Source of the DNA: Zygnema circumcarinatum SAG 698-1b
Lineage: Eukaryota > Plantae > Zygnematophyceae
Reading direction: 5' to 3'
Assembly (NCBI GenBank): GCA_037447605.1
Contig: CM074814.1
Span: 1,798,001-1,862,000 of the forward strand
DNA length: 64,000 nt
The notes below the pieces were generated by a model that saw only the letters and a list, made by a program, of their open reading frames with translations, searched no databases and was not told the DNA's origin. Both the position numbers and the translations under genes were made by a program. This document shows, piece after piece, positions 1 through 55,344 of the stretch; positions within the stretch are counted from its first letter, which is position 1; every line of letters starts with the position of its first letter.

Positions 1-1
1 T

Positions 2-583
2 GGTTCACGCACCAAAGTCTTACGCGCCTGGATTATGGGCTCTAACGGCTACGCTTTGTGCGCGCCCGGACAAGTCCTCGTGCGCGGACTTAACGCCTTG
101 CAAAGCTCGTTTAATTCGTCAGTTCATTCGAACTTGCTCGAGTTCTTACTAACAACTCCACGAAAAGAACGCAATTTTGGCATGCTTCTAACTCGTGCCA
201 AGTCCTATCGCAAGTTTTGGGAGTTTGCCTGTGCAAAACGCAGCGCGAGCGAGTTGCCAGTGGTTTACATGTGTACGCTAGCGCACCGGGATGACATTGT
301 TGTCCTTGAAAAGAGCGGAAAAGGCAAATTCCTTTGTTTGGTTTCCAAAGGCTCGCCCTTGGGTAGAGTAGAATATTTCAAGTACATCTCAACTCAGTAC
401 GACTTCAAAAGGCGAGAAATTGAGTATGAGAACACTTTGCTCAATTCGGTGCCGTGGCGTTGCGTGGAGGCGAAGCGCAAATACAAACAGAAGTATACTG
501 CAGACTACCCGCTTGAATCGCAAGAGTCTTTGAGGAAGTTTCTCGAGTTGCTTGAAGATAGGGACAGCTGCGCAAGGGTCTAA
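2..583 (+). CDS. polB: 3' part of the same PolB (cut by the window start)
   Basis: ORF 35..583 is identical to the C-terminal 182 aa of the 326-aa ORF. Confidence 0.8.
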   Translation, partial: GSRTKVLRAWIMGSNGYALCAPGQVLVRGLNALQSSFNSSVHSNLLEFLLTTPRKERNFGMLLTRAKSYRKFWEFACAKRSASELPVVYMCTLAHRDDIVVLEKSGKGKFLCLVSKGSPLGRVEYFKYISTQYDFKRREIEYENTLLNSVPWRCVEAKRKYKQKYTADYPLESQESLRKFLELLEDRDSCARV

Positions 584-942
584 CGTTCAAGGAAGAGAAG
601 CATGGAGCAGTCGTCTCGAGTCGCGAACTTGCTCTTGATGACAGCGGTGTTAAAGCAGTGCTCACGATGCGCACTTAAGGGCGAGGTTTTGCTCGTAAAT
701 AGAAAGCTTCGGAGCTTGTGGACTTTCTCAATAGGCACGGGATTCGGGAATACACGCATGGCAAGTGTTCGACTAGGATTGACAGCAACTATTGTAAGAA
801 CCAGACGCAACAAGGTGTCGCTCCGGGGAGTTTTCCGCTTACGGCTGACGTATTTATGGTTCTCACCCTTTTCACTGAGTTGGACGCTGGCTTTGAACCA
901 GAGCGGATTTAGTACAGAGTTTATAGAAACGCTTCCAGCCAT

Positions 943-1158
943 GAGGGCGACCAGAGGGCGACCATAGGGAGCTCGCGCGGCGCTCACTGCGTTCGCTTGT
1001 TTCACCGTGAGCTTCGCGAACAGGCGACCGAAGGGTGACGAAGTCACAGGCGACCGTTCGCTCGCGCGGCGCTCACTGCGTTCGCTTGTTTCACGGTGAA
1101 ACAAGCGAACGCAGTGAGCGCCGCGCGAGCTCCCTATGGTCGCCCTCTGGTCGCCCTC
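943..1158. other. Fold-back junction / putative hairpin terminus (second copy 4115-4330)
   Basis: The arms pair up to 1010/1091. The 80-nt loop contains gtgac-GAA-gtcac (1035-1047), cc-GAA-gg (1028-1034), a gcgaac/gttcgc inverted repeat and a second copy of a 35-nt arm segment (971-1005 = 1060-1094). GGCGACC occurs at 946, 957, 1023 and 1049. Confidence 0.7.
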
Positions 1159-1521
1159 ATGGCTGGAAGCGTTTCTATAAACTCTGTACTAAATCCGCTC
1201 TGGTTCAAAGCCAGCGTCCAACTCAGTGAAAAGGGTGAGAACCATAAATACGTCAGCCGTAAGCGGAAAACTCCCCGGAGCGACACCTTGTTGCGTCTGG
1301 TTCTTACAATAGTTGCTGTCAATCCTAGTCGAACACTTGCCATGCGTGTATTCCCGAATCCCGTGCCTATTGAGAAAGTCCACAAGCTCCGAAGCTTTCT
1401 ATTTACGAGCAAAACCTCGCCCTTAAGTGCGCATCGTGAGCACTGCTTTAACACCGCTGTCATCAAGAGCAAGTTCGCGACTCGAGACGACTGCTCCATG
1501 CTTCTCTTCCTTGAACGTTAG
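1159..1521 (+). CDS. Hypothetical 120-aa basic protein (MAGSVSINSV...SRKRKTPR...LLFLER) running away from the hairpin, convergent with polB; copies at 580-942 (-), 3752-4114 (-) and 4331-4693 (+)
   Basis: The ATG at 1159 follows two tggtcgccctc repeats. Its TAG stop overlaps the polB TAA (ctaa at 580-583). No homology recognised. Confidence 0.4.
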   Translation: MAGSVSINSVLNPLWFKASVQLSEKGENHKYVSRKRKTPRSDTLLRLVLTIVAVNPSRTLAMRVFPNPVPIEKVHKLRSFLFTSKTSPLSAHREHCFNTAVIKSKFATRDDCSMLLFLER

Positions 1522-2630
1522 ACCCTTGCGCAGCTGTCCCTATCTTCAAGCAACTCGAGAAACTTCCTCAAAGACTCTTGCGATTCAAGCGGGTAGTCTG
1601 CAGTATACTTCTGTTTGTATTTGCGCTTCGCCTCCACGCAACGCCACGGCACCGAATTGAGCAAAGTGTTCTCATACTCAATTTCTCGCCTTTTGAAGTC
1701 GTACTGAGTTGAGATGTACTTGAAATATTCTACTCTACCCAAGGGCGAGCCTTTGGAAACCAAACAAAGGAATTTGCCTTTTCCGCTCTTTTCAAGGACA
1801 ACAATGTCATCCCGGTGCGCTAGCGTACACATGTAAACCACTGGCAACTCGCTCGCGCTGCGTTTTGCACAGGCAAACTCCCAAAACTTGCGATAGGACT
1901 TGGCACGAGTTAGAAGCATGCCAAAATTGCGTTCTTTTCGTGGAGTTGTTAGTAAGAACTCGAGCAAGTTCGAATGAACTGACGAATTAAACGAGCTTTG
2001 CAAGGCGTTAAGTCCGCGCACGAGGACTTGTCCGGGCGCGCACAAAGCGTAGCCGTTAGAGCCCATAATCCAGGCGCGTAAGACTTTGGTGCGTGAACCA
2101 AAGGTCAAACCCAGAACGCGCTCTTGTTCATTTAAGAGAGTGTTCAAGCGCCCTGTGTTAGCACAAGGAACACGTAGGATAGCGCCGTCCGTGTTTGCTT
2201 GCAGGATGTCGGAACAGGATGAGAGCGATTTGAGCACCTCCAAAAGGATTAGCTGCCCATTTATGGTGATGCTATAGTACAGCTTAGGATTGTAAAGCAA
2301 AGAACCAGAAGCATTCAAATTGCCAACAATCGAAAGCAGAAGCACTTTGTATGTGATTGATCGTCTCCGAAGCTCAATCTCGGGTGAAGCTTTCCACTTC
2401 AAGCGCAAGTCCCGCCATTCGCCTAGCTTGGCCAATAAGCGCTTAGCATAGTCTTGTGAAGAACCGATTATGTGGAATTCGGAGCCCTTCTGCAACAACT
2501 GAATAAGCAGTTCAATAGAAAACGCGGTAATGTCGATATGAAAAATAGCATTCTCTGTATCGCTTTCAAACTCAACAATAGCCTGCTTGTTTCTGTGGAT
2601 AGAGTGCAGCCCACCTAGCCCTACCTTGAA
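1518..2630 (-). CDS. polB: Inverted copy of the same PolB fragment
   Basis: Identical 326-aa translation (ORF 1518..2498), with the frame open up to the N gap. Confidence 0.8.
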   Translation of the reverse strand, partial: FKVGLGGLHSIHRNKQAIVEFESDTENAIFHIDITAFSIELLIQLLQKGSEFHIIGSSQDYAKRLLAKLGEWRDLRLKWKASPEIELRRRSITYKVLLLSIVGNLNASGSLLYNPKLYYSITINGQLILLEVLKSLSSCSDILQANTDGAILRVPCANTGRLNTLLNEQERVLGLTFGSRTKVLRAWIMGSNGYALCAPGQVLVRGLNALQSSFNSSVHSNLLEFLLTTPRKERNFGMLLTRAKSYRKFWEFACAKRSASELPVVYMCTLAHRDDIVVLEKSGKGKFLCLVSKGSPLGRVEYFKYISTQYDFKRREIEYENTLLNSVPWRCVEAKRKYKQKYTADYPLESQESLRKFLELLEDRDSCARV

Positions 2631-2642
2631 TNNNNNNNNNNA

Positions 2643-3755
2643 TTCAAGGTAGGGCTAGGTGGGCTGCACTCTATCCACAGAAACAAGCAGGCTATTGTTG
2701 AGTTTGAAAGCGATACAGAGAATGCTATTTTTCATATCGACATTACCGCGTTTTCTATTGAACTGCTTATTCAGTTGTTGCAGAAGGGCTCCGAATTCCA
2801 CATAATCGGTTCTTCACAAGACTATGCTAAGCGCTTATTGGCCAAGCTAGGCGAATGGCGGGACTTGCGCTTGAAGTGGAAAGCTTCACCCGAGATTGAG
2901 CTTCGGAGACGATCAATCACATACAAAGTGCTTCTGCTTTCGATTGTTGGCAATTTGAATGCTTCTGGTTCTTTGCTTTACAATCCTAAGCTGTACTATA
3001 GCATCACCATAAATGGGCAGCTAATCCTTTTGGAGGTGCTCAAATCGCTCTCATCCTGTTCCGACATCCTGCAAGCAAACACGGACGGCGCTATCCTACG
3101 TGTTCCTTGTGCTAACACAGGGCGCTTGAACACTCTCTTAAATGAACAAGAGCGCGTTCTGGGTTTGACCTTTGGTTCACGCACCAAAGTCTTACGCGCC
3201 TGGATTATGGGCTCTAACGGCTACGCTTTGTGCGCGCCCGGACAAGTCCTCGTGCGCGGACTTAACGCCTTGCAAAGCTCGTTTAATTCGTCAGTTCATT
3301 CGAACTTGCTCGAGTTCTTACTAACAACTCCACGAAAAGAACGCAATTTTGGCATGCTTCTAACTCGTGCCAAGTCCTATCGCAAGTTTTGGGAGTTTGC
3401 CTGTGCAAAACGCAGCGCGAGCGAGTTGCCAGTGGTTTACATGTGTACGCTAGCGCACCGGGATGACATTGTTGTCCTTGAAAAGAGCGGAAAAGGCAAA
3501 TTCCTTTGTTTGGTTTCCAAAGGCTCGCCCTTGGGTAGAGTAGAATATTTCAAGTACATCTCAACTCAGTACGACTTCAAAAGGCGAGAAATTGAGTATG
3601 AGAACACTTTGCTCAATTCGGTGCCGTGGCGTTGCGTGGAGGCGAAGCGCAAATACAAACAGAAGTATACTGCAGACTACCCGCTTGAATCGCAAGAGTC
3701 TTTGAGGAAGTTTCTCGAGTTGCTTGAAGATAGGGACAGCTGCGCAAGGGTCTAA
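2643..3755 (+). CDS. polB: Family-B DNA polymerase, phage-type palm/thumb region; 5' end lost in the N gap (about 370 aa visible)
   Basis: The frame is open from 2643 (FKVGLGGLHS...HIDITAF...) into the 326-aa ORF at 2775. It has GGLH, a motif A Asp (2739), motif B-like YKVLLLSIVG, LYNP..YSITINGQL and motif C QANTDG. The order and spacing match phage-type PolBs of the GGIH / TxNGQL / NTDG kind (recognised from memory, not searched). Confidence 0.8.
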   Translation, partial: FKVGLGGLHSIHRNKQAIVEFESDTENAIFHIDITAFSIELLIQLLQKGSEFHIIGSSQDYAKRLLAKLGEWRDLRLKWKASPEIELRRRSITYKVLLLSIVGNLNASGSLLYNPKLYYSITINGQLILLEVLKSLSSCSDILQANTDGAILRVPCANTGRLNTLLNEQERVLGLTFGSRTKVLRAWIMGSNGYALCAPGQVLVRGLNALQSSFNSSVHSNLLEFLLTTPRKERNFGMLLTRAKSYRKFWEFACAKRSASELPVVYMCTLAHRDDIVVLEKSGKGKFLCLVSKGSPLGRVEYFKYISTQYDFKRREIEYENTLLNSVPWRCVEAKRKYKQKYTADYPLESQESLRKFLELLEDRDSCARV

Positions 3756-4689
3756 CGTTCAAGGAAGAGAAGCATGGAGCAGTCGTCTCGAGTCGCGAAC
3801 TTGCTCTTGATGACAGCGGTGTTAAAGCAGTGCTCACGATGCGCACTTAAGGGCGAGGTTTTGCTCGTAAATAGAAAGCTTCGGAGCTTGTGGACTTTCT
3901 CAATAGGCACGGGATTCGGGAATACACGCATGGCAAGTGTTCGACTAGGATTGACAGCAACTATTGTAAGAACCAGACGCAACAAGGTGTCGCTCCGGGG
4001 AGTTTTCCGCTTACGGCTGACGTATTTATGGTTCTCACCCTTTTCACTGAGTTGGACGCTGGCTTTGAACCAGAGCGGATTTAGTACAGAGTTTATAGAA
4101 ACGCTTCCAGCCATGAGGGCGACCAGAGGGCGACCATAGGGAGCTCGCGCGGCGCTCACTGCGTTCGCTTGTTTCACCGTGAGCTTCGCGAACAGGCGAC
4201 CGAAGGGTGACGAAGTCACAGGCGACCGTTCGCTCGCGCGGCGCTCACTGCGTTCGCTTGTTTCACGGTGAAACAAGCGAACGCAGTGAGCGCCGCGCGA
4301 GCTCCCTATGGTCGCCCTCTGGTCGCCCTCATGGCTGGAAGCGTTTCTATAAACTCTGTACTAAATCCGCTCTGGTTCAAAGCCAGCGTCCAACTCAGTG
4401 AAAAGGGTGAGAACCATAAATACGTCAGCCGTAAGCGGAAAACTCCCCGGAGCGACACCTTGTTGCGTCTGGTTCTTACAATAGTTGCTGTCAATCCTAG
4501 TCGAACACTTGCCATGCGTGTATTCCCGAATCCCGTGCCTATTGAGAAAGTCCACAAGCTCCGAAGCTTTCTATTTACGAGCAAAACCTCGCCCTTAAGT
4601 GCGCATCGTGAGCACTGCTTTAACACCGCTGTCATCAAGAGCAAGTTCGCGACTCGAGACGACTGCTCCATGCTTCTCTTCCTTGAACG

Positions 4690-5136
4690 TTAGACCCTTG
4701 CGCAGCTGTCCCTATCTTCAAGCAACTCGAGAAACTTCCTCAAAGACTCTTGCGATTCAAGCGGGTAGTCTGCAGTATACTTCTGTTTGTATTTGCGCTT
4801 CGCCTCCACGCAACGCCACGGCACCGAATTGAGCAAAGTGTTCTCATACTCAATTTCTCGCCTTTTGAAGTCGTACTGAGTTGAGATGTACTTGAAATAT
4901 TCTACTCTACCCAAGGGCGAGCCTTTGGAAACCAAACAAAGGAATTTGCCTTTTCCGCTCTTTTCAAGGACAACAATGTCATCCCGGTGCGCTAGCGTAC
5001 ACATGTAAACCACTGGCAACTCGCTCGCGCTGCGTTTTGCACAGGCAAACTCCCAAAACTTGCGATAGGACTTGGCACGAGTTAGAAGCATGCCAAAATT
5101 GCGTTCTTTTCGTGGAGTTGTTAGTAAGAACTCGAG
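4690..5136 (-). CDS. polB: 3' part of the same PolB, truncated at the junction with unrelated sequence at 5136-5142
   Basis: ORF 4690..5091 is identical to the PolB C-terminus. Identity to the arm stops after ctcgag at 5136. Confidence 0.75.
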   Translation of the reverse strand, partial: LEFLLTTPRKERNFGMLLTRAKSYRKFWEFACAKRSASELPVVYMCTLAHRDDIVVLEKSGKGKFLCLVSKGSPLGRVEYFKYISTQYDFKRREIEYENTLLNSVPWRCVEAKRKYKQKYTADYPLESQESLRKFLELLEDRDSCARV

Positions 5137-5354
5137 AAAGTTGGCCTTTCAGGGCTTCAGGAAATTTGGAACCGCTCCGCTTTTGTTTCTGTATCTGCTT
5201 CAGGAACAAATATTTTTGGAGGAATATGGCTCTGAAATGGTTGGAAGAAGGGGCAGCAGGGGTTGCTCTCTATGTCGGCAGGACTGCAAAGTGAAGTTGT
5301 TCATGGATTTTTTGTGTTTCTAGAAGCGGTACACTAAACAATCAATCAAACGAG

Positions 5355-5635
5355 CATGCTCCACCTGCTACGCCATAACCATCTCCATAGCCTGCTATAG
5401 CATAGCAGCCACCCCTATATCCACCGCCTGTATCATACCCGACCTTAGCAGGGTTTGAACACAAGACCTCCCGGTACCCACACCAGTGCTTTACCATTAA
5501 AAGGCAACCGCGGATGTAAATACTAGGCCATACAACAGATATATAGCGTTTCGCTACACCGCCCCTAGCAGCACCGTAACCTCCTTTCTCTATATCTGAC
5601 TCTGTCCACTTAGGCTCCGTCTTCTTTATCTCCAC
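5355..5635 (-). pseudogene. Orphan last-exon fragment of an hnRNP A/B-like (RRM + Gly-rich tail) gene, interrupted by a 130-bp insertion
   Basis: An acceptor cttcag|GTGGAG gives VEIKKTEPK...GGYGAARGG...GYGDGYGVAGG. VEIKxAEPK is the typical end of RRM2 in hnRNP1-like proteins. No upstream exons were found. Confidence 0.65.
5429..5558 (-). mobile_element. 130-bp solo LTR with an internal tRNA-like sequence (Helenus-like TRIM LTR)
   Basis: Ends are TGTA...TACA with a 5-bp TSD CCGCC (5424-5428 and 5559-5563). The empty site is confirmed by the paralogous exon at 6300-6320. The minus strand has an A-box-like tggtaaagc, an anticodon-like stem ctggt/accgg and a B-box-like gaggtc..gtgttcaaacc. Confidence 0.7.
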
Positions 5636-6239
5636 CTGAAGAAGAACAAGCGTGAAAACGTGATTCTTTATGTAGGTACAACATCATGACTTGTACAGGC
5701 TTGACTGCACTAACATGGTGCAATCACTTCAAGAGTGACTCGTCAAGTCCCTCCTAGATCACTATGCAAAATAACAGACATTAGCAAGTCGAAAAAGTTG
5801 CTACAGCATAAGTTACTTCCACAATATGACCACAAAAAGAAAGGCATTGTAGCCCCGAAGCGGATTGATCGCTGAGCTATTGTAGCGAGTGCTACAACCA
5901 CCACGGTGCCGCGCTCATCCTGGAGATCCCCAAACGATTCGGCCATATAGGTCCTCCGTGCAATTGTACAATTGAATCTTGAATAGAAGAGTTTTTCTGA
6001 ATGTTTTTAAGCCTGCATGGTCATTTAAAAATGCTGTACCTATTTTCAGGAATCCATCATCAATGTTGTTTCGCAGTGGGAATCTTGAAATTCACAGGGC
6101 AGGAGTCAATCGTCCAACTTCTGCCACTCTATCACATGGTCTATTGGTTTGTACGGGCGTATTGCTGACATGTTCGTTGGTTTGTGTTGGGCAGAGGAAT
6201 TCAAACAATATTTCTCTGCTCTTGTTTGTTCGTCTGCAC

Positions 6240-6483
6240 GTGGAGATAAAGAAGGCGGAGGATAGAGCCAGGTGTAGAGAGAGGAGGTTACGGTGCTGCC
6301 AGGGGCGGTGAATATGGGGGTGGTGGCTATGCTGCAGCAGGCTATGGAGATGGCTATGGCGTAGCAGGTGGCTACGGTGGGAGTGGAGGTTACCGTTCTG
6401 GAGGTGGTTATGGGGGTCGGGGCGGTTACGGCGGTGGTGCAGGTGGATATGGGGGTGGGGGCGCTGGTTCAACGGGAGAATAA
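6240..6483 (+). pseudogene. Second, oppositely oriented copy of the hnRNP-like Gly-rich last exon
   Basis: VEIKKAE is followed by a frameshifting deletion, then GGYGAARGGEYGGGGYAAAGYGDGYG...STGE*. The acceptor is mutated (cac instead of cag). High nucleotide similarity to 5355-5635. Confidence 0.65.
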
Positions 6484-8082
6484 CATGTAGGAGGCTCTTT
6501 CTTTTGTCCTTAGGTCCGATGGGACCAGTTTGCAACAATGGATGTATGTGGCCATGCATGGATGGCACTTGGACATGGGAGTTGGCCTTTGGTCCCGTAT
6601 GTGTGTTGCAGTGCCGGACCAGCCTAACCATTTCACACATTCACACTATTTACATTTGGGACGTGGGCGACGCAAGAGAGGCATGTCGACAGTAGCACAT
6701 GTACCAGGGAACAGCCATAATAAGAAAGGAAGGTCTAAGTCGGATACTGGGAACACAAGCAACATGCAACACAAGGAGTGATGCAAAACCCATTGCGATC
6801 ATCACTGCACAGAAGCAAGCCCGCCCTTACGAGAAGCGAATACATGAAAGTTTAAGCGACTGCCCTGGAGAAGAAGTTTGTTTCATATCGCAAAGAATTT
6901 AAGTTCTTCAAGAAAAAGACATTCCCAGCCTCTAACTAAACCTGATGCTTGCTTATTCCCAACAAAAATGGTAAGGTAGCAGAGACAGTGGCAGCGATCC
7001 CACGGCCGCACCTCGGCCAAACCTAATCCGCGTGCTCTCTCTCAGGGGGGGCTTGAGTTTCTTAGCGATCAGTAAGCGATGCCTGAGACTATTATGTACA
7101 AGCAAGTAGAGGAAGTGCTACACTTTACATGCCCTCCTTGCTGATCCTATTCACAGGGGCCACCCTGCTCCAGCAGACAGCTCGCAGCTGGTAATTGTAT
7201 ATGGATCAACCAGACGATATATAACAGGCTTGAAAATGTGGCACTTGCCCAATCTACTCTTATCGAACTCTTATCTAACTCTCTCTCTCTCTCTCTCTCC
7301 TTCCCTCTCCCTGCCTTTCCCCCTCCCACCCCCCCGCCAAGAAGGCGGCTCTTCTTTCATGCAAGGAATCAGACCTTGTCCGAAGTGGAGGCAAAATCCG
7401 AGTCTCCCCCCACACCCTGGCCGTGAGAGGGGGAGCAGCATGCAGCTGTGAGAGAAGCCACTTGCTGGCCGTACGAAGAAGCAAGGAGAAGCTCCACACT
7501 GTTCTCCATGGACTCGCTTGGAGAGACTTGCGCGTGCTGCAGGAGCAGCACATACCTGCATGTGCTGCGGTCCGGGGCGTCTTTCACAATCACGTCTCCT
7601 GCACATGTGAGAGCGGAAGCCTCGTTACCTTCAGGGTTCATATAGAGTTCTTCACATAGAACAGACGTGCGGCTCTACATGCTTGAATGCTATCCAAAAC
7701 AGCTGATTTTAGTATTGAAACTTGTGTGGCACCTGCTGTGTAGTCCTTGCCGCCAGGAATGTTGTGGACCAACCTGCATCCCTCCATAAAAATTCATCAA
7801 ACAACCGTATACCTCCGTATTCATTCAATCGCAACAACATGGAGCTCTGTTCAGCAACGATGGGAAGCGCGAGAAACAAATTCTACAAACGTGGAGGGTG
7901 GAGGGTCAAATAAGTGTAAGTGAATACCAACGAAGTCGAAGGTCCGCCACGTCTGAACCGCTCTCACCGTCTGCCATCACCTGCAACGCCTCCCACACAA
8001 CTGAACGTGAGCCACGGCCCGAAGTCTGTTTAACTACCTCCTAGCATTAAGAACATTAACCTCCTTTCCAGAGCACGCACAG

Positions 8083-9282
8083 CTAACTGAAAAAGGTATA
8101 TTTTATTTCTAAATTCTGAAAAAATGGTTTGATGAAGTTCAAGTTCTCAGGCATTAGAGAACCACCACTCACAAGTGTGTATAGCTGTTTGATCCCTCCT
8201 GAAATAGCCACATCCACATATGCAGCGATGGGATTCCCCTTATCTCTTCCAGCAGCACACCGCACTTCCAGCCCTCCTGAAACCGCCGAACTCCGCCGCT
8301 TCTCGCCGCCCTGCGCTCTCACCTTCCGCAGAGAGTACACGCCTTTCACAGCCACCCTCCCTTCACCCCCTCCCCCCAGGCCTACCCCTCTCTGCTCGTC
8401 TCCCAGTCCCAAGGAGCTTCCAAAAGCGACCCCCAGAGGCCCTCTCCCTCCTGCAGGAAGGATGGGCTTCTTCAGCTCCGTGTCTCCTATAAGAAACTGC
8501 AACAGTCCTGTAAGCCGCGTCCTCCTCCAAGTGCGCTGAGCAGCCCATTGCTGCGCCTCGCTATTACCGCCGCCCTCCGCGCCCTTAACGTTTCCTGCTG
8601 CTCTTTGGGGCCATTGCTCAGCAGCTGTCTCCTCACATCCAGGGTGTCCGCTCTCACACAGCTGCTTCTTCAAGTCCTTCCTAGGGTTCACTTTCTTATT
8701 CACATATGCTCCACTTGCTGCTGCTGCCTCTCCAGCACCCTCTACGTCAGTTATTCCTTCTTCTCCCCCGAATGAAGCTTGTTCCTCCTCCGGGCTCACT
8801 GACTGCAGGTTCCGAGAGGCAGCCCGGGCGCCATTTGCACGGTTAAGAACGAGCAGCTCGCCAGGATTCATGCCCGCAGCTTTCCCCTTTGCCTCGTCTC
8901 TACCCGTCAGCATTTGCCCTAAACTGAGAGCTGCCGGCTCTTCCAGAGGCTCCGTATACTCCACAAGATGTCTACGAACGGCCATGGCGGCCTGGTACCT
9001 GCTCGAGCTGGAAAGCTCATCCTCCACCTTCCACTGCGCGGCATGGCGGGGCCTCTGGCGGAGAAGCATGGCGAAGGAGGAGAGCCAGTAGAGCACGAAG
9101 ACGGTCCAGCCCACTGCCCAGAGAGCACGCGAGCGGGACCGGGAAGGTGCAGCAGCGGCGCCCTTCTGCTTGTGGCGGCGAGGAGAGCGCGGAGAGCTCC
9201 GCGGGGGGGAGGTCGGAAATCCGCCATAGTACTCTGTCGCCCTCCGCACGTTGGAAGTGACACGTGTCGCCGTCGGAGACAT
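8083..9282 (-). CDS. Large first exon of an uncharacterised type II membrane protein (short basic N-tail, one TM helix, long acidic/low-complexity stem); further exons probable in 7300-8030
   Basis: The ATG at 9282 (MSPTATRV...) lies in the 571-aa ORF, with TM segment ALWAVGWTVFVLYWLSSFAMLL. There is a probable donor ctt|gtgagt near the ORF end and a GC-rich promoter with G-box and CCAAT at 9440-9600. Catalytic family not recognised. Confidence 0.55.
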   Translation of the reverse strand: MSPTATRVTSNVRRATEYYGGFPTSPPRSSPRSPRRHKQKGAAAAPSRSRSRALWAVGWTVFVLYWLSSFAMLLRQRPRHAAQWKVEDELSSSSRYQAAMAVRRHLVEYTEPLEEPAALSLGQMLTGRDEAKGKAAGMNPGELLVLNRANGARAASRNLQSVSPEEEQASFGGEEGITDVEGAGEAAAASGAYVNKKVNPRKDLKKQLCESGHPGCEETAAEQWPQRAAGNVKGAEGGGNSEAQQWAAQRTWRRTRLTGLLQFLIGDTELKKPILPAGGRGPLGVAFGSSLGLGDEQRGVGLGGGGEGRVAVKGVYSLRKVRAQGGEKRRSSAVSGGLEVRCAAGRDKGNPIAAYVDVAISGGIKQLYTLVSGGSLMPENLNFIKPFFQNLEIKYTFFS

Positions 9283-10081
9283 GGCGGCGAGAGGAGAGGG
9301 ACAGGCGGGAAAACTGATGAGGGCGGGGAAGGGGTGGCAGCGGGAGGGAGAGGGAGGGGGGGAGAGGGAGTGGGAGGGAGGGAGGGAGGGAGCGCGTGGG
9401 GTCGTGTCGCGCTTTTGGGCAGCTCGTCGGGAGGGAACGGCTAGCGCCCGCGGGGGGCGCTGACATGGCGGGCGGGCGGCCTCAACGGTCCTTCCACGTG
9501 GCCCAATGGGCGGGAGCGGTCGCGCGCGCGAGCCCGCGGGGGCCCTCGTGGCGCGCGCCCGCGGGCCCTGTGCGGTCGGGCTCGCGCGCCCTCGATCCGC
9601 TACGGGACAAATTGACGTGGATGGAGATCGTACGGAGATTGTCTCCTTGCTGGCACTTGCTGTACGGTCAGGCCGGACAAATATCCCGATGTTTGGACAA
9701 AGGAATGTGCATGGAGCACGACATGGACTGTAGCAGAACATTAGATCTATGTTGCACGGAGCGTGATAGTGGATTGGGACTGTGTTGTTGCGTGCCAAGT
9801 CCTAGCGTGGTCACGCGCCCGAGTCCCGACAAAGCCGGCCGTACGCTTCCCCGCCCTGTGCTGTGCCGTCCCGCCAGCTCGGCTCCACGGGCGCGCCACC
9901 CTCATGGTGTACGTGTGGCGCGCTATGACTGGCCAATTGAGTGAGGCGCGCACCTCGAGGGAGCCGCGTGGCCGGAGGGGTCGCCGCCACGTCGTGCCAC
10001 CCGGCAGACGGCGAGCGGCGGCGAGCGGCGGACCGCCTTTGCTCTTGTTGGGCGGACTGCGAGCCAATGAGCGAGCTGCTT

Positions 10082-12215
10082 GCGGGCGGGCACGTTTGTC
10101 GTTTTTGTTTCAGCCGGCCGGCCGGAGGCAAAGTGGTCGGCGCCGGCCGGCCTGCCGACGGCGTGGCCGCGGGAGGCCGGCCGTACGCATCGCGCCGCTC
10201 GACTCATGCCCATGCCCATGCCTGTGCCCATTGGCCGTGGGCCTATGAGGTAAAGGGCGGCGGGTGGAGTTTACTGGTACAGTATGGTCGGCAATCTTCG
10301 AATCGACGGTGGGGAGGGCATGTAGCGGTAGGCCTTGAGAGCCCCCAACCCTCCAGCAGGACCAATAAGATCTGATATCAATGTAGCGCGGGGACTCATC
10401 TATACCTGCGCTACATTTGGTATCAGAGCCTGTGAGAGGGGCAGAGGGATGAGAAGCAAATTCACCTTCCACCCTTTCTCCCTCTTCACTGTCCATGGAA
10501 ACTTCCCTCCTGGTGCCCGCAGCACTCTCACTCATTTTTCACTCACGTGCATACACAACACACGAGAGGCGGAATAGAAAAACGTAGGAGAAAGCTCCCA
10601 GCCTAAAACTCCTTTATGATGACAAGCTTTCCAACTCAAGCCCCCATAAGCCTAGTCAAGCTTTCACCACATGATCACTTCACCTTCACGTGAGGCAGCT
10701 CTCCACACACGGAGACTCCTCACAAAGGTCCACCTCCTGTTGCCAAAGCCATGCCTTCAAACTGCCATAGCCTTGCAATGCATATCAAGAAGGTTTCTAA
10801 CTTACACACCCACTCTCACTATATAGTATGGGGCTGTGACGTGACCATGTCACGTCACACGCGCCGGGACCATGCATGCAACAACCTTATTCAAACAACC
10901 TAAATAAACTACTTCGTGTCTTGCTATGCATAGTACACCCAGCCTGGCAACGTACCAACACCACCGCTCTAACCCAGATGGCCATGTACTCTACCGCCGA
11001 GCTGAACTTCCCGCCGTCACCCACAAGGACTATCTTCCGTACGCAAAGTAGGCTCCGCCGACTCCACCGACTTCGCCGCCTTTTGCCGCCGCATCAGTCC
11101 ACGATTCCGTACGCCAGGACCGATTCCTCGGCGCGGTACCAAATGTCGGACTCCTGGCCGTACGGTCCATACGAACCGTATTATCCGTACGGTTGCGCGG
11201 TCGGTCTCGCCGCCGCGCGCACGCTGAAGTAAGTCCGTCCCCATACATGTCACACCTAGAAGCACACCCCTAGGAACTAAGCGCCAACACAAACATGCTA
11301 ATCTAAACTAACTATGTACACTAACAGAGCCTGCCTTAAAAACCTGCCCCTTGCAGGACTTGTACCCACAGTCTCTTACATTCTTAGTAGACGTTTCAAC
11401 CAACAAGCCACAACGACGCATAGTAACATGGTCGATCTATATTTTCTTTATTACGTTAAGTCATGCATGTTGCAGGTGTTGTGTTGCGTGAGCAAGGTCG
11501 ACTCAGTGAATGGGTGAAGCGTTCCGCACTTCGTGGCCTAACCCCTTTCTTCTTCTCCCACCTTTTGGGCCAATGCCAGTTCACATATTTCAGATCGATT
11601 GAAGTTTAGTGAGGAGGGGGTTCAGCTTGTTTGAGTTCGTGGCAAATGTTATTCAAGAGTTCATATTTTGTGAATTTTAGTGTTTGAATAGTAAGGTTTG
11701 GGATAAAAGGTTTTAGAATTGGAGGGTTTCCGTTTTTCAGATTTTGAGGACTTGAGGGTTCCAAGGTACAAGTTTCTCAGCACGTGAGGCTTCCATAACG
11801 TTCACATGGAGTCGTTAGGGGTTTGACGATGCTAGGGGTTGTCAGGGTTTAGAGATTTCAAGATTGTAGCAGTCATGTCCATCAGATTGTTTTTCTTATT
11901 TAAATTTGAAAAGAAATTTCTATACCGCTGCGCATGCACAACAACAAACACAACAAGTCCTACACCATTCAACTCCGATGTTTGTATGCTTTCATCCTGC
12001 CGCCACTGTTGCACCACAACTTCTGGAACGGAACTACAACTGCGAAACTAGACTGGAACTGCGAGTGAAACTGTAACTACAGTTGTAACTGCTCCGCGCG
12101 CATCCGTACAGCACATCGAACCTGCCTCTCCCGCCGTCGGCACGCCGGTCGCCACCGACCACTTTGCGCCGGCAGTCCGCCAGTCAAGCAGAAAACGACA
12201 AAGTCGCCCGCCCGC
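10082..12215. repeat. Pair of diverged ~80-bp inverted repeats (10082-10163 and 12133-12215) in the divergent intergenic region
   Basis: Both read gccgtcggca.gccgg.cg.c.ccgaccactttgc...aaaacgacaaa..gcccgcccgc towards the neighbouring gene start. No TSD found. Confidence 0.7.
10321..10429 (+). mobile_element. Short LTR-like relic followed by a tRNA-iMet primer-binding site
   Basis: tgtagcg...cgctaca (10321-10415) is followed by tt and the canonical TGGTATCAGAGC (10418-10429). A purine tract ggtggggagggca lies immediately upstream. No matching second LTR seen. Confidence 0.45.
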
Positions 12216-12367
12216 TGTACGGTACCCGCTTTACAGCCGGGCGACGTCATCCGGTTTAACCACGTGGTCTCCGCCAATGAGCACGTTGCTTTCCAGCGCG
12301 ACGCGCCAGCGTGGCACCGCCCCCGCGCAGCGCTGGCAGCCAGCGGGCAGCCTCCGCCGCCGGGCAC

Positions 12368-12373
12368 TATAAA
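12368..12373 (+). promoter_or_regulatory. TATA box of the B12D gene
   Basis: ctataaaggg lies about 150 nt upstream of the ATG at 12517, preceded by G-box ccacgtgg and ccaat. Confidence 0.6.
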
Positions 12374-12516
12374 GGGGCCGCGAGGGGCTGCGAGCTGCAG
12401 GAATTAATTCTCGCCCTCTCCTCTCCTGCTCCCTCTCCCTCTCCCGCCCGCCCTTCACGCACTCGCTCGCTCGCTCGCACGCCTCCCTACCTCGTCTGCG
12501 TTTCTTCGGACCCGCC

Positions 12517-12903
12517 ATGGCGCCTACTGCTGCTGCTGTTGCCAGATGGGTGAAGCCCGAAGTGTACCCGCTCGTGGGGATGATGTCCATGGCGCTCGGC
12601 TTCATGGCGTACACGTCCGTGCGCTCACTCACCTCCGCTCCCGACGTCTTGTAAGGACAACTTTCCCTCTCGTATTTCTGATTCTGCTGGCGCCTCCCTG
12701 CAAGCTCTGGTCCGCCCCAGCTACCCTCTCTTTTTCTGAGTTGTGCCTGCACGTGGCGCAGTGTGACGAAGGCGCGGCGGCAGGAGGGCGGGCCGGCCTG
12801 CACTGAAGTGGAGGGCCGCGTGTACCGCCACAGCCCTTTGCGGGAGTTTGTCAGGGTGCGCTCTCCTTTCCCTCGAAAATTCAACCCTAAAAGCCTACAT
12901 TGA
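12517..12903 (+). CDS. B12D: B12D / NDUFA4-like small membrane protein (exons 12517-12650 and 12762-12903; an alternative third exon near 12989 is possible)
   Basis: Spliced translation MAPTAAAVARWVKPEVYPLVGMMSMALGFMAYTSVRSLTSAPDVF|VTKARR...EGRVYRHSPLREFVR matches the B12D signature RWxxPEVYPL...P(D/E)V..TK...R.FVR. GT-AG intron in the correct phase. Confidence 0.85.
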
Positions 12904-14415
12904 CATTCTTGCAGCGCGCCTCTCTCTCTCTCTCTCCCCCCCCGTCTCTCTCTCACTCATTGTTACATAAGTTTTTTCCTCCTGCAGAGTTTTTACGACA
13001 TCAGGTCAACATCGAATCCGTTGACTCCGGCTGGTAAACATTGATCGCTCTATTCTTCCCCAGTTTAGATTTTGCGAGCCTTGTATAAGCTCTCGGCTCG
13101 GTTCGCACCGTGTGCTGAAGGCGAAGTCAGCCATGGCAGGATGAGGGCCCTCTGTCACGTCTCTCAATCAGGAGGCGAGTGTGCTGCTAAGCACCGCTAG
13201 GGCCTTAGAAAAGAAGGCCACCCGCAATCTCATTGAAGGTGATATGCGATGGAGACTAAGATGTTATTGGGTAAAGTTGGCTGTAGCTCATGTACCACAC
13301 GTAAATTTTTTAGGCAGATATGAAGATGATCGCGAAGCTTCCGGCGCTTTTGCGGGTATAAGGTGGTCAGGTAGCAGTGCAGTGCAGGCTTCCTCGCCAC
13401 CAAACATGTACATTACACGTTGTTTTATTTATTGACACCAGTTTGTTCTTCACCACCATTGATTTCAGTTTGGTGTTTTCTGGTTTGAAAATTACATGGA
13501 AGTACAGAATTCGCATTTGGATGACCCGGTGTTAAACTCTCGCCGATGCAAACTTTTGTTTCAAAATAAATGCTTGGCCGTGCAGGGCGACTTTCCAAAT
13601 CGCAAATGGAAAATGTCAAACAGCCATGTTTTAAACTTAGCTTTCACGTCATTATCCGTAGTGCACTTTCTGCAGTAAAATGACGAATCACTTTCTGCGG
13701 CCTTCTTTTTCTTGGACTGATTGGGACTCCATAATGGGGGGTCACACAGCAAGCGGACGAGCATTCCAGGGACTCCAACCGTGCACAGCTTTAGCTTTCC
13801 CTGCGCGCTCCCCTCCCCCTCTTCAGGTTTAACTGATGCTGATGATTTGATTTTATTTTATGTGATTTACAATGTTCTCCTACCGTCGTAGAAACCTCTC
13901 GTTTTTAACGGTAGAATACCCCTGACGTAAAGCTGAAAGAAGCTGAATGAATATACTAAGAAGACAACCACGAAAAGAAAACATGCAAGTGGATCGTTTG
14001 TGCTGAACGAGGACGACAGGAAATTTGGAGGGAGAAGAAAGGCAGAGACTACGGTACGAGGAAGAGCCTGGCGGAACTAAAGGGGGGGGGGGGCAGGAAG
14101 CATGATCGGAGAGTAGTTCACCCCACACTTGGTCACACTTGGCGGGGCACCGACTCCCTCGAACCGTACATGGACGGAGGCAACAATGGGAATGTGAACA
14201 TAGGAATGAAAATTCTTTTTTCTTCCGTCAGTTTTGCGACCGGTTGGTTCCTCGTGGTTCCCCATGTTGCTCTTGTCCATGTAGCGCGCCACGTTTGAAC
14301 GGTTCCAACGGTCGACTCGCGACCCGCGTGGCGCGGGATTCAAATTTTCGCCTGCCACCGCCCACGGAGGGAGGCGGGGTGGTAGGCGGAGAGCCTTGGA
14401 AGGCGATGGCAGGCC

Positions 14416-14732
14416 ATGGCGTCCTTCCGTGAACTCAGTGGAAGGCTCCTCGCGGATGCGCGTTTTGGCTGTGAAAAGCGAGTTAGGGATGAGCAAATTA
14501 CGATGGATTCGGTTGGAAGACTGAAGCTCGAGTCGAAGGTTTTCCGAACGAAGGGGTAAATAGACAGAGGACGAGATTGGAACACCTTGAAGACGAGCGC
14601 GCAGAGATGTCTACTTCCCTTGAAGGCAAACAATCGTAGCTGAAGCTGCTGCAAGAGAAGCTGTTCGATGTAAAGCTTAAGCTACTCTGTGAAAAGGAAA
14701 ATGTCCCATTGCTGGGTCTTGAAAAAGAATGA
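14416..14732 (+). pseudogene. Decayed coiled-coil coding fragment
   Basis: MASFRELSGRLLADARF... and RTRLEHLEDERAEMSTSLEGKQS*LKLLQEKLFDVKLKLL... show heptad-like composition broken by stops and a frame change. Confidence 0.3.
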
Positions 14733-15271
14733 GGCTTTTCAGACGGAGGACATCGAGATTCGTAGGCCATGTAACGAGGCACGCAGCAGAGACGAAGGAA
14801 TCGACTGTAAACATTTGCAAGAGGCGAGGTGAGCCACTGCACCAGCCGCCTCGCTAAAGTAAACATTGAAAAACCTGAGATATGGCACACACTGGCTGTT
14901 GAACAACATTGCAAAAGCAACAGAAATAACGTCCCATGATGCCGAAAAACCATATTACGAAACAGACGGAACAAGCCAAAACAGGAGCCGAGAGATGTGC
15001 CTCAGTGCTTAAAAGAACACTTTCTCCACAACAAAATGAGGAAAAAGATGAAAAGGCGGTTGAGACATGCATGCTGAGTTTCCCATTCCCCTCCCACTGC
15101 CTGCCCGCTCGTCGTCAGTTGCTACATGCCACGATTGCAAGACAGGCCGCGTTTTCCGTTTCCGTTGCCGTTGCCGTTCCTGTCGACGGCGCGCATGAAC
15201 TCAGAATCGGGACAGTAAAGCGCAGTCTGAGGAAGGGTTGGGTCCAATTGGCAGGCCGCAGTACAGAGCCC

Positions 15272-18200
15272 TTATGAGCCCCGGGAATCTTCAAGCTTTC
15301 CGAATCTGAATGGCGGTTGGCCAATGGTCGTGAAAGGGACTAAGCCCATAATACGTGCAGTACGAATCTTTCGGCTGACTTTACGTTGTGCTTTTGCACT
15401 TAATTTCGTCTGTCATACCGAATTCCCAATCCAGAACATTTGCGTCACATTAGTCTGATGACACTCTCCAGCATCAAGACATGAAATTGAACCTCTTGAG
15501 GAATCGCAGAAAGATAAAGGGGAGGTCCGAGAATGATGCAGGAAGACAGAGAATAAAAAACTTTATGGCAGGTGGTGTACTAGGGACAAGTAAGAGTAGC
15601 TCGATTTATATACAATGGAGGGAAACCATGGCGAGTGAGAGGAGAAAGATGTGATTGGAGACTTCTGAAGATTTGAAGAAGAATAAGAAGCTAGATGGCA
15701 ATGGACAACAGCCAAACTGGGTGAATCAAACTCGTGCTTGATCTGAATTGAAGTTGATGCTGTTGATGGACAGCTATCAGACCATTTAAACAGAGCAAAC
15801 GAAAAGTAAACTAAAAACCATAAGTGATTTGAAGCTTACCTTTGTGCGAGACATTATCTTGGACGTTTCTGTCGTGAATTGCAAAAGAAACCGCGGATTC
15901 TGCGAAGTGCACCAAAATGGGCATGAACAAGTATGAGCACCTTCACACCACCTGCATGAGGGCTAGCAAACAGAAGCCAACAAAAAGAAGGGCGAGCAAG
16001 AGCAACACAATACTCACCCTAAAGTCTGCTTTATCCAGCGCGTCTTTGGTTGTGAACGTGAGTCGAGAACGCGGCGGCACTGCGTCATACTCCATTGGCG
16101 GAGGAGTACTGGAAAGGTCCAATTCCTGAAACACAATTCCAATCGTTTCTAAGGTTGGTCCTTGTTCAACAGGCAAAATAAAGGTCCAAAACTGGACAGT
16201 CAAGAGCGCAGTCCAACGAACAACCATCGAAGCTCATGAAGTCTGCGAGCTTGTCGCAATGCAGTTTTTACAGCAACATTGAAGGTTCCCTTTGCAGTTA
16301 AATCTTCTTCAGAGTCAGTAGGCAACTCACATCCATCTCATAAGTCTGCCCAGGGTAGTAAAGCCGATCATTGCGAAAGCGATATGGCCGCTCCAAGTCT
16401 TCCAGATCGTATTCCTCAATTGCAGCCAATGCCGCATCACTGAGGACCCCTTCCTCCTTGAGACCATCCAACTCCGACTGATTCGCAGGTGAACCCCTCT
16501 CACCTTCCTCCCACATGCTGAAGTCTTTGCCTCTGATGGGCCGTGGCTTTACCGCCTTCCAATCATCAGGGTCTCCCTCTGCTTTCTCCAAAAGCTCCAC
16601 CAGTTCATCTCGTTCTTCGACGTCTTCAATTGCAAAAGAGTCTTCAAACAATTCAGTATCTTGTCCTTTGTCTCGCGCATTCCACAAAGTCCTCGCCATC
16701 TGCGCGTCTTCCTCATCGCCATCATCTGACACCTGTTGCACTGATGAGCAGCAAATCGTTCCCCATTAGCAAAAAGCAGGCAAACACTTGTTCGCTGTCA
16801 GAAAGAGCATGTTGTTTTGTATGTCTGCTCTTTGACTGGGTTAATGGAAGACCACTTCTCTTGCTTCCATAAGGCAAGTTCAGCTTGTGTAATTGCACGA
16901 GTTTAGAGAAAGTAAACGTTAATCGTTTACATATCCCCTTCGGACTTTCCATACCTTTCTAACATTGCTATCTCATGCCCTGGCCCATGACCTGAATTAC
17001 ATGAATTTGCCAAAAAAAAATCAAAAGAAGAAGTTTGATTCCAATTCACTGGATAGGTCATTGGTTTATCTGGCAATTTGCCTATAGAAAAAGAAGTGTC
17101 AAAACAGGTTGGAATACAACAGAAGGACCCGAAACAAACTGACGCATTTCAGAGTAACCAAACCAAAGGATACTCCTAGTCCATTACTTCATCATCGCCA
17201 ACTCAAAAAAATGGGACTGCTAACTTGAACATGGCCCTTGTCTACAATGCGAAGTTTCCAGCAAAAGCGCGAACCAGTTGGATGAACGCTTTGCAAAAAA
17301 GATGTCTTTTTGGATTGTGTAAATCATATAATTGAAAGCACCGCATTTTCGCGAAGGTAAGAAAACGCATGTGCTTATTCATGTATCGGTACCAAAACCT
17401 AGTTTGACGGGTATCTCTCCGAAAACAAAAATGAAAACTGACATTCTAGTGTAGGATAAGAAGACAAAAGAAGAAAGAGCTATATGTACAGATTTGACTC
17501 AAACAAGAGTGCCAAGCATAACTAAAGAATATTAGTTTTCTATTGAAACTCCTGGTTCTGTCCAATCCTTTTCCCTGCTCAGCAGTCACTAATAGCTGTA
17601 TTGAAGGACAGCTGTCTCTTTTGTGAAGAAGCTCACCCGCAGAATCGCTGATGCTGCGCTGCACCTCAGCGTTTATCTCCTCGTCAGTGGGCTCGTCATT
17701 TCCAGCCTCCAAGGGTTTTGACTTCTCCGCTCCTGAAGGAAAAAAATGACCAGTAGTGTTCAGAAAGGGGCTTCTCACAGCAGCAAGCTTTATGAGGTCT
17801 TGGATTTCAGGGGAGGTAAACTTCAATGGAATACACTCGCATTCGGCTCGACATGAATAATCTAGGGGGTCTACATGGGTAAGCCTTGGCTTGAGATGAG
17901 CAGTGGAAATAGTACATGGCTTCAATACAGCACAGAGGGATATAGTTGCATTTGAGCTCAATCTGCACATGCTCTTTAATCTACCTTCACTAGAGATGCT
18001 TTGAAATCCATGCAGAATAACCGCTGCAACTTCCAACAACAGGTTTGGTTTCGAATTCCGCAAAGAATAGGAAGAAGTTAAGTAATGCAGTCCAGTTGCG
18101 GCTGAAGGATGAAGACCATTAAGTGTGATAATGCCAGTTACGTGTTCTTAAAACACGTAACTGGCGTTGTTCGTGTTCAAGTGGACAGTTGGCAAAGCTA

Positions 18201-54703: not shown

Positions 54704-55344
54704 AGGGAACCCTCCGCCCGCCCGCCCGGCCGCGCCAGGCTGGCTGGCCAACTGGCGCCTTCTGGCGGCGCCACGTGGCCTGCCCCGCGCCGGCGCGGGC
54801 TCCCTTTCCCTCCCCGCTCGGGCCCCGGCCCCTCCGCGCTGCCACGTGGCGGTCCGCCGAGCCCTCGGCGGCGCCGTCAGCGTCCGGTTGACGTGGACCG
54901 CCGTGCCACGTGGCGCCTGCAGCCTCGGCTCCGCCGTCGCCATGGGCCCGCCCGCCCGCCCGCCCGCCCGCCCGCCCTACAAGGCCGCCCGCCGGCCTCA
55001 CTCGCGGACAACCTTCTCTCGCTCTCTCTCTCGTTCTCTCGCTCTCTCTCTCTCTCTGCTCTGTTCCCAGCGCTGCCTAAAGCGCCACCGTAGCTGCAGA
55101 AAGGAAGGCGATGGACGGGAAGAAGCTGCAGTTGCAGATGTTCCCCCTCAACGAGCTTCCGGAGGGTTGCTTGGCGGAGGTGATGCGGCATCTTTCTCCT
55201 GACGACGTAGGGAGACTCGCTTGCGTGAGCGCCACGTTTGCAGCGGCTGCGCGCTCGCACACTGTGTGGGAGGTGCTTGTGCCAAGGCAGCATGGGCCCT
55301 TTTGGAAGATGGCCTCTCCTGCTCGGCCTATTGCNNNNNNNNNN

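What the first reader, a model, noticed from the sequence alone, without database searches (positions are those of the whole stretch)
1..5136. Candidate hairpin-ended linear replicon encoding a phage-type PolB in a plant/algal assembly
Seen: a fold-back unit whose arms carry an intronless PolB reading toward the turn-around and a small convergent ORF reading away from it, tightly packed with overlapping stops. It is unlike the intron-rich host genes after 5137. Established: covalently closed hairpin ends occur in poxviruses, ASFV, chloroviruses, phage N15 and some linear organelle DNAs, while eukaryotic linear plasmids and Polintons use protein-primed PolB with terminal proteins instead. As I recall, the GGIH / TxNGQL / NTDG PolB type is mainly from tailed phages. 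Inference: this may be the end of an undescribed linear plasmid or virus-like element associated with the alga or a co-cultured microbe.
Basis: partly seen in the sequence, partly recalled or inferred. Interest (0 to 1): 0.85.

Follow-up and report, generated by a model that had tools for sequence, protein, structure and literature searches.

The report
Organelle polymerase relic, folded by assembly
This high-copy algal DNA carries a phage-type DNA polymerase gene fused to the broken tail of a plasmid-type polymerase; it is likely a piece of an organelle (probably mitochondrial) genome that the assembler likely folded into a false hairpin at short repeats, so it is probably not a new hairpin-ended plasmid or virus.

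Summary
The palindrome and the PolB are in the assembly as described. The hairpin-end reading is not supported. The arm is high-copy: about 100-220 times nuclear contig depth in three DNA runs. It runs on at least 4.4 kb past the gap. The turn-around is not a unique loop but a cluster of short palindromic repeats. The same modules occur in other orders elsewhere, at about the arm's depth. Depth doubles at 4129 in 4 of 4 runs, which fits a 54-bp inverted repeat on a one-armed molecule. The ORF is a chimera: a phage-type palm (motif-A Tyr lost) fused to a pipolin-type PolB tail that continues broken by three stops and a frameshift. The small convergent ORF is likely just the antisense of that remnant. 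Broken relatives of the tail lie in organelle-like DNA beside a tRNA and an LSU rRNA. The join at 5136/5137 looks like a strain-specific nuclear insertion. Best reading: decaying mobile-element DNA in an organelle genome, folded back by a short-read assembler. No raw or long reads could be examined, so a true hairpin end is not excluded (about 8%).

The parts
1..2631 (.). First assembled copy of the fold-back (arm 1-1010, centre 1011-1090, reverse arm 1091-2631); redundant with 2642-5136, likely an assembly duplicate
   Evidence: contig ends are also duplicated (1174 and 1310 nt) at two of the window's three other 10-N gaps
2632..2641 (.). 10-N scaffold gap joining two reverse-complementary ends; the real molecule continues here for at least 4427 bases not in the window
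   Evidence: contigs of X1, X2, X6, X7 run on 844, 619, 2072, 656 nt; X5 contig of 5944 nt
2643..3449 (+). Phage-type family B polymerase palm, fingers and part of thumb (PHROG 1252 type). Catalytic Asp, Lys and NTDG are kept; the motif-A Tyr is Ser. The database version P0002 starts only 27 codons upstream, so no exonuclease domain is in that ORF
3462..3755 (+). C-terminal part of a pipolin-type (piPolB-like, PF03175) polymerase, in frame with the phage-type part; ends at a premature TAA at 3753-3755
3756..4093 (+). Broken continuation of the piPolB-like gene: frameshift near 3857 and two further in-frame TAG stops; 53% identical to P0023 over 79 codons after the shift
   Evidence: no differing letters or indels listed here in any of four runs
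4129..4316 (.). GC-rich (65%) cluster of short palindromic repeats: 54-bp inverted repeat 4129-4182/4263-4316, three copies of a 35-nt unit (4143-4177, 4232-4266, inverted 4268-4302), and an 80-nt asymmetric centre 4183-4262. This is the apparent hairpin
4268..4693 (+). 141-codon convergent frame; likely not a gene (antisense to the piPolB remnant, starts inside the repeat)
4317..5136 (-). Reverse copy of the arm (mirror of 3309-4128). Either the assembler's fold-back path or the nuclear inserted copy itself
5107..5390 (.). Junction to nuclear DNA at 5136/5137. One contig at nuclear depth in X1 and X2 has 30 letters on the element side; X6's contig leaves the window sequence at 5137, so the insertion is likely absent there
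   Evidence: table 8

Best explanation
The arm is high-copy DNA carrying a phage-type PolB fused in frame to the broken tail of a pipolin-type PolB; it is likely a decaying mobile-element insert in an organelle genome (probably mitochondrial), and the long palindrome was likely made by the assembler. Step 1 (shown): one polymerase domain of the PHROG 1252 type and one piPolB-like C-terminus meet near 3450-3500, and the piPolB part carries three stops and a frameshift. Step 2 (inferred): two foreign replicons, a phage-derived PolB element and a mitochondrial-type pipolin, entered the organelle genome, recombined and are decaying. Step 3 (shown): the arm ends in a cluster of short GC-rich palindromic modules that occur in other orders at other loci of the same depth. 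Step 4 (inferred): the true molecule passes once through the cluster, arm - 54-bp inverted repeat - centre - inverted repeat - unknown sequence. The short-read assembler left the second repeat back into the arm. Step 5 (inferred): a copy of at least 30 nt, probably 0.8 kb or more, sits in the nucleus of some strains at 5136/5137 and pulled the contig into a nuclear scaffold.
For: Arm contig depth is 8510, 6106 and 4694 against nuclear 51-61, 62-64 and 21-28 in X1, X2 and X6. Exact-match lay: depth steps 1.87, 2.05, 2.09 and 1.93-fold at 4129/4130 in X1, X2, X5 and X6, even though depth just before the step varies from 0.41 to 1.0 of the arm. A second copy that shares the local drop fits the other end of the same cluster. 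The piece across the centre edge (about 4178-4217) reads 14000, 9000, 1300 and 8786. One arm plus one other locus predicts 14415, 9500, 1415 and 8850; a hairpin loop plus one other locus predicts 11958, 8250, 1093 and 7425. In X5 the centre pieces are 2 to 19 times the arm, and rearranged joints from other loci read 679 and 770 against an arm of 645. Lesions in the piPolB remnant show no variant in four runs. Of 222 pattern matches in metagenome contigs, two encode relatives of the piPolB tail. Both are broken and lie in repeat-rich DNA, one beside tRNA-Cys and one beside the 3' end of a bacterial-type LSU rRNA with a Rep and an integrase fragment. Pipolins are known from mitochondria (PMC5695915, passages). 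Palindromic dispersed repeats are known in green algal organelle genomes (PMC2670323 abstract; PMC1894977 passages). The same assembly duplicates contig ends at other gaps.
Against: No raw or long reads were available. The 35-nt unit is longer than a 31-letter word, so no contig can link either exit of the cluster, and the true continuation was not seen. In X1, X2 and X6 depth falls to 0.41-0.73 of the arm over 4097-4157, which a real molecule end would also cause. Only 32 of 4490 pieces were listed, depths look rounded, and the other-locus values are the best-supported rows. The depth model has a free integer (the number of other loci). No organelle gene was seen on the same contig as the arm; mitochondrion versus plastid rests on relatives and on a recalled likeness of L012's tRNA to green-plant mitochondrial trnC. 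The phage-type domain keeps most conserved residues (4 departures of 35, within the 0-6 range of its relatives), and 370 codons are open, so it is not plainly dead. X1, X2 and X5 may be the source of the assembly; X6 is the one laid DNA run not so marked.
Confidence: 0.68

Rival explanations
1. A separate high-copy plasmid-like molecule (circular, or linear without a hairpin here) in the organelle or cytoplasm shares the repeat family; the fold-back is still an assembly artefact.
For: At least 5.9 kb of unique foreign-looking sequence on one contig. Close piPolB relatives sit mostly on 2.9-3.8 kb contigs (7 of the 8 top hits), the size of single-gene plasmids. No organelle gene was seen on the arm.
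Against: Depth matches that of other repeat-bearing loci in four runs (1.12-1.28 times), which an independent plasmid need not do. The polymerase DNA is chimeric and partly broken.
Confidence: 0.16
2. A true covalently closed hairpin end of a linear organellar plasmid or chromosome, replicated through an inverted dimer junction.
For: Perfect arms around an asymmetric, foldable centre. Flip and flop orientations relative to the long arm. High copy number. Depth falls near the centre in three runs. Linear and palindromic mitochondrial DNAs exist in green algae (PMC3787674 abstract).
Against: Two-fold step at 4129 in 4 of 4 runs. Centre-edge depth is above the hairpin expectation in 4 of 4 runs. 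The centre modules are dispersed repeats. Flip and flop are also what an assembler makes of any inverted repeat.
Confidence: 0.08
3. The fold-back is real but rare: a rearranged minority form, or a nuclear insertion that itself contains the inverted arm and cluster, while the main high-copy molecule is one-armed.
For: The nuclear junction at 5136/5137 has nuclear depth in X1 and X2. Their element contigs show no second break between 3309 and about 4140, so the insertion may reach the cluster.
Against: The first copy (1-2631) extends both arms beyond the insertion's start, which a nuclear copy alone does not explain. No low-depth junction contig was among the rows listed.
Confidence: 0.06
4. 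A prophage or plasmid of a co-cultured bacterium or endosymbiont.
For: Distant relatives are phage polymerases (309 phage records, all under 60%) and a PolB on a Candidatus Megaera plasmid (26%).
Against: No relative in GTDB genome contigs and no close one in IMG/VR. All 20 holder rows carry one organism label across 8 studies. There is a nuclear insertion, decayed genes and organelle-type repeats.
Confidence: 0.02

Closest known systems
Phage- and plasmid-derived non-standard ORFs in green algal organelle genomes (PMC4877394, PMC3814193, PMC5888179; passages read)
   Same: Foreign replication or integration genes (integrases, primases, polymerases) inserted in organelle intergenic DNA.
   Different: The passages read list integrases, D5-type primases and family A polymerases, not a PHROG 1252-type PolB fused to a piPolB tail.
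50-kb foreign region of the Zygnema circumcarinatum UTEX 1559 mitogenome (Orton et al. 2020, doi 10.1093/jxb/eraa149; content recalled, paper not held; only its citation seen)
   Same: As recalled: a mobile-element-like region in a streptophyte algal mitogenome with ORFs like primase, RNA polymerase and DNA polymerase.
   Different: No sequence comparison was possible and the window's host species was not determined. The element could be unrelated, or could be this very kind of region and so already reported.
Mitochondrial pipolins (pCRY1-like plasmids; PMC5695915, passages read)
   Same: The family of the tail has the TTDG and KTRG motifs that define piPolB and PF03175.
   Different: The window holds only the part after those motifs, broken and fused to another polymerase. 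Known mitochondrial pipolins are intact circular plasmids.
PHROG 1252 tailed-phage DNA polymerases
   Same: Profile match E 8e-19; Atlas neighbours are mostly Uroviricota.
   Different: P0002 groups (SH-aLRT 99, quick tree, long branch 1.74) with 25 other proteins, 17 of them 850-2000 aa, apart from the ~600-aa phage type. It lacks the exonuclease domain and the motif-A Tyr.
Hairpin-ended or palindromic algal organelle DNAs (Polytomella magna, PMC3787674 abstract; Cladophorales hairpin plastid DNA, title seen in a reference list only)
   Same: Palindromic arrangement in green algal organelle DNA.
   Different: For P. magna the abstract cites gel support and palindromes of core genes. Here the depths favour a one-armed molecule.
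Short palindromic dispersed repeats of Volvox and Chlorokybus organelle DNA (PMC2670323 abstract; PMC1894977 passages)
   Same: Short modules that combine into stem-loops at many loci; in Volvox, copies also reach the nucleus.
   Different: Sequence relationship not tested.

Membership tests
Hairpin-ended linear replicon (poxvirus, N15, Polytomella type) | Covalently closed end on the physical molecule | not testable with these tools
   All 24 listed runs are kept as contigs, none as raw reads
Hairpin-ended linear replicon (poxvirus, N15, Polytomella type) | Unique loop between two equal arms, with no depth step along the arm | tested here: not met
   About two-fold step at 4129 in 4 of 4 runs; centre pieces are multi-copy. 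Contig-level evidence only
Hairpin-ended linear replicon (poxvirus, N15, Polytomella type) | Telomere resolvase or other end-processing gene | tested here: inconclusive
   None among four frames scanned; at least 4.4 kb upstream could not be read
Pipolin | Intact piPolB with TTDG and KTRG motifs | tested here: not met
   Relatives have both motifs; the window has only the downstream tail, with three stops and a frameshift
Protein-primed linear mitochondrial plasmid or Polinton | Protein-primed PolB as the replicase | tested here: not met
   The open catalytic domain matches PHROG 1252, archaeal PolB and Pol alpha structures; phi29-type structures were not among the 57 hits
PHROG 1252 phage-type PolB | Palm motifs A, B, C | tested here: met
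   D60, K122, N151-G-Q and N173-T-D-G are kept. Motif-A Tyr (25 of 25 relatives) is Ser and the preceding Ser (23 of 25) is Ala
PHROG 1252 phage-type PolB | N-terminal exonuclease domain in the same ORF | tested here: inconclusive
   P0002 begins about 250-290 residues into its full-length relatives; upstream DNA not seen
Organelle chromosome segment | Physical linkage to mitochondrial or plastid core genes | not testable with these tools
   No whole genome held; loose ends are shown to 30 letters only
Organelle chromosome segment | Depth far above nuclear and equal to other loci of a repeat-rich replicon | tested here: met
   96-224 times nuclear in X1, X2, X6; other-locus joints at 1.12-1.28 times the arm
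Nuclear insertion of organelle DNA (NUMT/NUPT) | Junction at nuclear depth between organelle-identical and nuclear DNA | tested here: inconclusive
   Contig 5107-5390 at depth 61 and 64 has only 30 letters on the element side, one short of the tool's bridging rule; element contigs break at the mirror position; X6 differs
Bacterial prophage or contaminant | Close relatives in prokaryote or phage genomes | tested here: not met
   0 confirmed of 81 and of 16 pattern matches in GTDB contigs; 0 of 14 in IMG/VR for P0002; repeat motif 0 matches

The most novel reading that the evidence does not exclude
An autonomous, high-copy linear organellar plasmid of a streptophyte alga with a true fold-back end built from the organelle's palindromic repeats. 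It would be copied by a chimeric family B polymerase (phage-type palm without its steric-gate tyrosine, plus a pipolin-type tail) from an undescribed clade of giant PolB-helicase replicases.
Probability: 0.08. Interest if true: 0.8.

Novelty: new member of a known kind. Interest (0 to 1): 0.3.

Why it matters
As best explained, this is a modest finding: another foreign polymerase relic in algal organelle DNA, plus a warning that repeat-rich organelle DNA makes false hairpins in short-read nuclear assemblies. Two side results have some value. First, there are piPolB-like genes in organelle-like DNA outside fungi (the window's algal host, L012, L013). Second, there is a well-supported clade of long PolB fusion proteins, some with an SF2 helicase, whose carriers are unknown and which had no match in GTDB contigs. 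A real hairpin end would be a new kind of streptophyte organellar replicon.

Tried and rejected
No whole genome was held, so the sequence upstream of the gap and the organelle genomes could not be read. Cluster membership could not be looked up. Five look-ups of earlier scan findings returned nothing. IMG/VR: no close relative of P0002, no match to the repeat motif, none for the piPolB alignment. Clade alignments gave only distant phage-like PolBs: 10 loci at 24-40% and 19 loci at 22-35%. GTDB contigs: nothing. X7 has a GT..AG spliced joint, so it is probably RNA; its low depth over the arm is not interpreted. Rfam hits on the cluster are miRNA models far below their gathering scores, so they only reflect a hairpin. 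Stop-codon reassignment was rejected for the piPolB remnant: the two TAG stops align with different residues (Tyr, Leu in P0023) and there is also a frameshift. A structure prediction of P0002 never finished. The tree is the quick version, because the careful search did not finish; it used the 70 best-scoring of 158 usable rows. Literature searches listed no paper on a hairpin-ended PolB plasmid in a streptophyte alga, judged from listings and the passages read. The most relevant paper (Orton 2020) is not in the library, and no supplements were read.
Full report
Observation. The window opens with two copies of one fold-back, 1-2631 and 2642-5136, joined at a 10-N gap where two reverse-complementary ends meet. 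The arms are perfectly inverted about an 80-nt centre (1011-1090 = 4183-4262; 874 perfect bp in the second copy). The centre region holds three copies of a 35-nt unit, two of which form a 71-nt near-perfect palindrome at 4232-4302. A 370-codon frame at 2643-3755 matches PHROG 1252 DNA polymerase (E 8e-19). The flank after 5137 is intron-rich green-plant-type DNA, with a CHASE histidine kinase whose receiver best matches plant histidine kinase 4 in the PDB, UGGT, an F-box gene and a copia element. I read the host as a streptophyte alga; the species was not determined.

The polymerase is a chimera. Residues 16-240 of the database form P0002 (397 aa) hit phage-type PolBs, best a 1760-aa protein with a weak DEAD-helicase match (P0018, 37%, E 2e-21). 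In a quick tree of the 70 best-scoring of 158 usable rows, P0002 sits on a long branch in a 26-row clade (SH-aLRT 99), 17 of them 850-2000 aa, apart from the ~600-aa phage type. The catalytic Asp, Lys and NTDG are kept. The motif-A Tyr, present in 25 of 25 relatives, is Ser; from recall this is the steric-gate position. Overall departure is 4 of 35 conserved columns, which is ordinary for the clade. Residues 296-392 hit a different family (P0023, P0055, P0122, P0157; PF03175), which has the TTDG and KTRG motifs that define piPolB (PMC5695915 passages). That homology goes on past the ORF's stop at 3753-3755, through a frameshift near 3857 and two TAG stops, to 4093. None of four runs lists a differing letter there, so the lesions are real.

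Copy number and extent. 20 of 24 listed runs hold the stretch or part of it, 11 with half the words or more. They carry one organism label and span 8 studies; 5 may be the source, and none is raw reads. Single-contig depth over the arm is 8510, 6106 and 4694 in X1, X2 and X6, against 51-61, 62-64 and 21-28 for flanking nuclear contigs, or 96-224 times. Contigs pass the gap position without a break; in X5 one of 5944 nt reaches 4427 bases beyond it. The element is therefore extrachromosomal or organellar, and larger than the window shows.

The turn-around. With exact matches only, 186-1505 contigs per run fall on 4040-4302 (32 of 4490 pieces listed). In X5 the arm is 645 and the centre pieces are 1300-12222. 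Contigs that join the same modules in other orders read 679 and 770, which means other single-copy loci at the arm's depth. In all four runs depth steps about two-fold at 4129/4130 (1.87, 2.05, 2.09, 1.93), although depth just before the step ranges from 0.41 to 1.0 of the arm. The simplest reading is a 54-bp inverted repeat (4129-4182/4263-4316) whose two copies flank the centre and share its under-representation, with a different sequence beyond 4316. The centre-edge piece fits one arm plus one other locus better than a hairpin loop plus one other locus in 4 of 4 runs. Against this reading: the local depth drop in three runs is also what a molecule end would give, the model has a free integer, depths look rounded, and 31-letter contigs cannot link across a 35-nt repeat. 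The assembly duplicates 1174 and 1310 nt at two other gaps, so it is prone to such errors.

The nuclear join. A 284-nt contig at depth 61 (X1) and 64 (X2) covers 5107-5390, with 30 letters on the element side, and the element contigs of both runs break at the mirror position 3309-3338. In X6 the nuclear contig leaves the window sequence at 5137, and an element contig (3128-3396) spans that position. I infer a strain-specific nuclear insertion. No other break is listed between 3309 and about 4140 in X1 or X2, so it is either exactly 30 nt or reaches the repeat cluster.

Compartment. The closest piPolB relatives lie mostly on 2.9-3.8 kb contigs, with one of 84 kb. The two loci confirmed among 222 pattern matches in metagenome contigs both carry broken copies in repeat-rich DNA. 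L012 is beside tRNA-Cys(GCA), which from recall looks like green-plant mitochondrial trnC. L013 is beside the 3' end of a bacterial-type LSU rRNA, with a Rep (PF23343) and an integrase fragment. Pipolins are known as mitochondrial plasmids (PMC5695915, passages). Phage-derived ORFs occur in streptophyte and other green algal organelle genomes (PMC4877394, PMC3814193, PMC5888179, passages). Stem-loop-forming dispersed repeats occur there too (PMC1894977 passages; PMC2670323 abstract). From recall only, a Zygnema mitogenome has a 50-kb foreign region with DNA polymerase and primase ORFs (Orton 2020, not held); this could not be compared. No GTDB contig or close IMG/VR contig encodes a relative. 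Distant relatives are phage polymerases and a Megaera plasmid PolB.

Verdict. The sequence is real, high-copy and foreign-derived, but the hairpin end is probably an assembly product. Best explanation (0.68): decaying mobile-element DNA in an organelle genome, probably mitochondrial, folded at short palindromic repeats and attached to a nuclear scaffold through a nuclear insertion. Rivals: a separate plasmid without a hairpin (0.16), a true hairpin end (0.08), a rare or nuclear fold-back (0.06), a contaminant (0.02). Shown: chimeric and broken polymerase DNA, high depth, multi-copy centre, two-fold step. Inferred: compartment, true continuation, insertion length, history. One long read set would settle it.

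Noticed in passing
proteins P0018, P0022, P0027, P0036, P0038, P0039, P0041, P0048, P0070 and others: A well-supported clade of mostly 850-2000 aa proteins with a PHROG 1252 PolB at the N-terminus and long, largely unannotated C-termini (DEAD-helicase match in P0022, weak in P0018); many have an AT-biased composition. Carriers unknown; no match in GTDB contigs.
   Followed up: partly
L013 1-15341: Organelle-like contig with the LSU rRNA 3' end (1-153), dense short repeats, a broken piPolB (4576-5341), a 426-codon HUH Rep frame (8456-9736, PF23343) and an integrase fragment (14259-14591).
   Followed up: partly
L012 302-4836 and 7141-7211: Broken piPolB whose N-terminal part lies downstream of its C-terminal part, with 24-nt tandem repeats between them, beside tRNA-Cys(GCA).
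   Followed up: partly
window 5416-5561: Short high-copy nuclear repeat (summed contig depth 28,000-77,000 in X1, X2, X6) that looks by eye like a tRNA-derived SINE; ARAGORN calls no tRNA in the window.
   Followed up: no
window 5361-5649 and 6226-6371: Diverged inverted copies (88-90%) of pieces of a glycine-rich coding exon, the left copy interrupted by the SINE-like repeat.
   Followed up: no
window 49340-56655: Ty1-copia element broken by three 10-N gaps, with 1174 and 1310 nt duplicated contig ends.
   Followed up: partly
window 37693-44616 and 20945-32770: CHASE-domain hybrid histidine kinase (cytokinin-receptor-like) and a UGGT gene, both intron-rich.
   Followed up: no
run X7, window 5904-6194: A contig skips 289 nt with GT..AG ends, so this run, guessed as DNA, is probably RNA.
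   Followed up: no
L001 (CP113870.1) 4478-16413: Candidatus Megaera plasmid with terminase, primase-helicase, a related PolB and a helicase: a phage-like module in an endosymbiont lineage.
   Followed up: no
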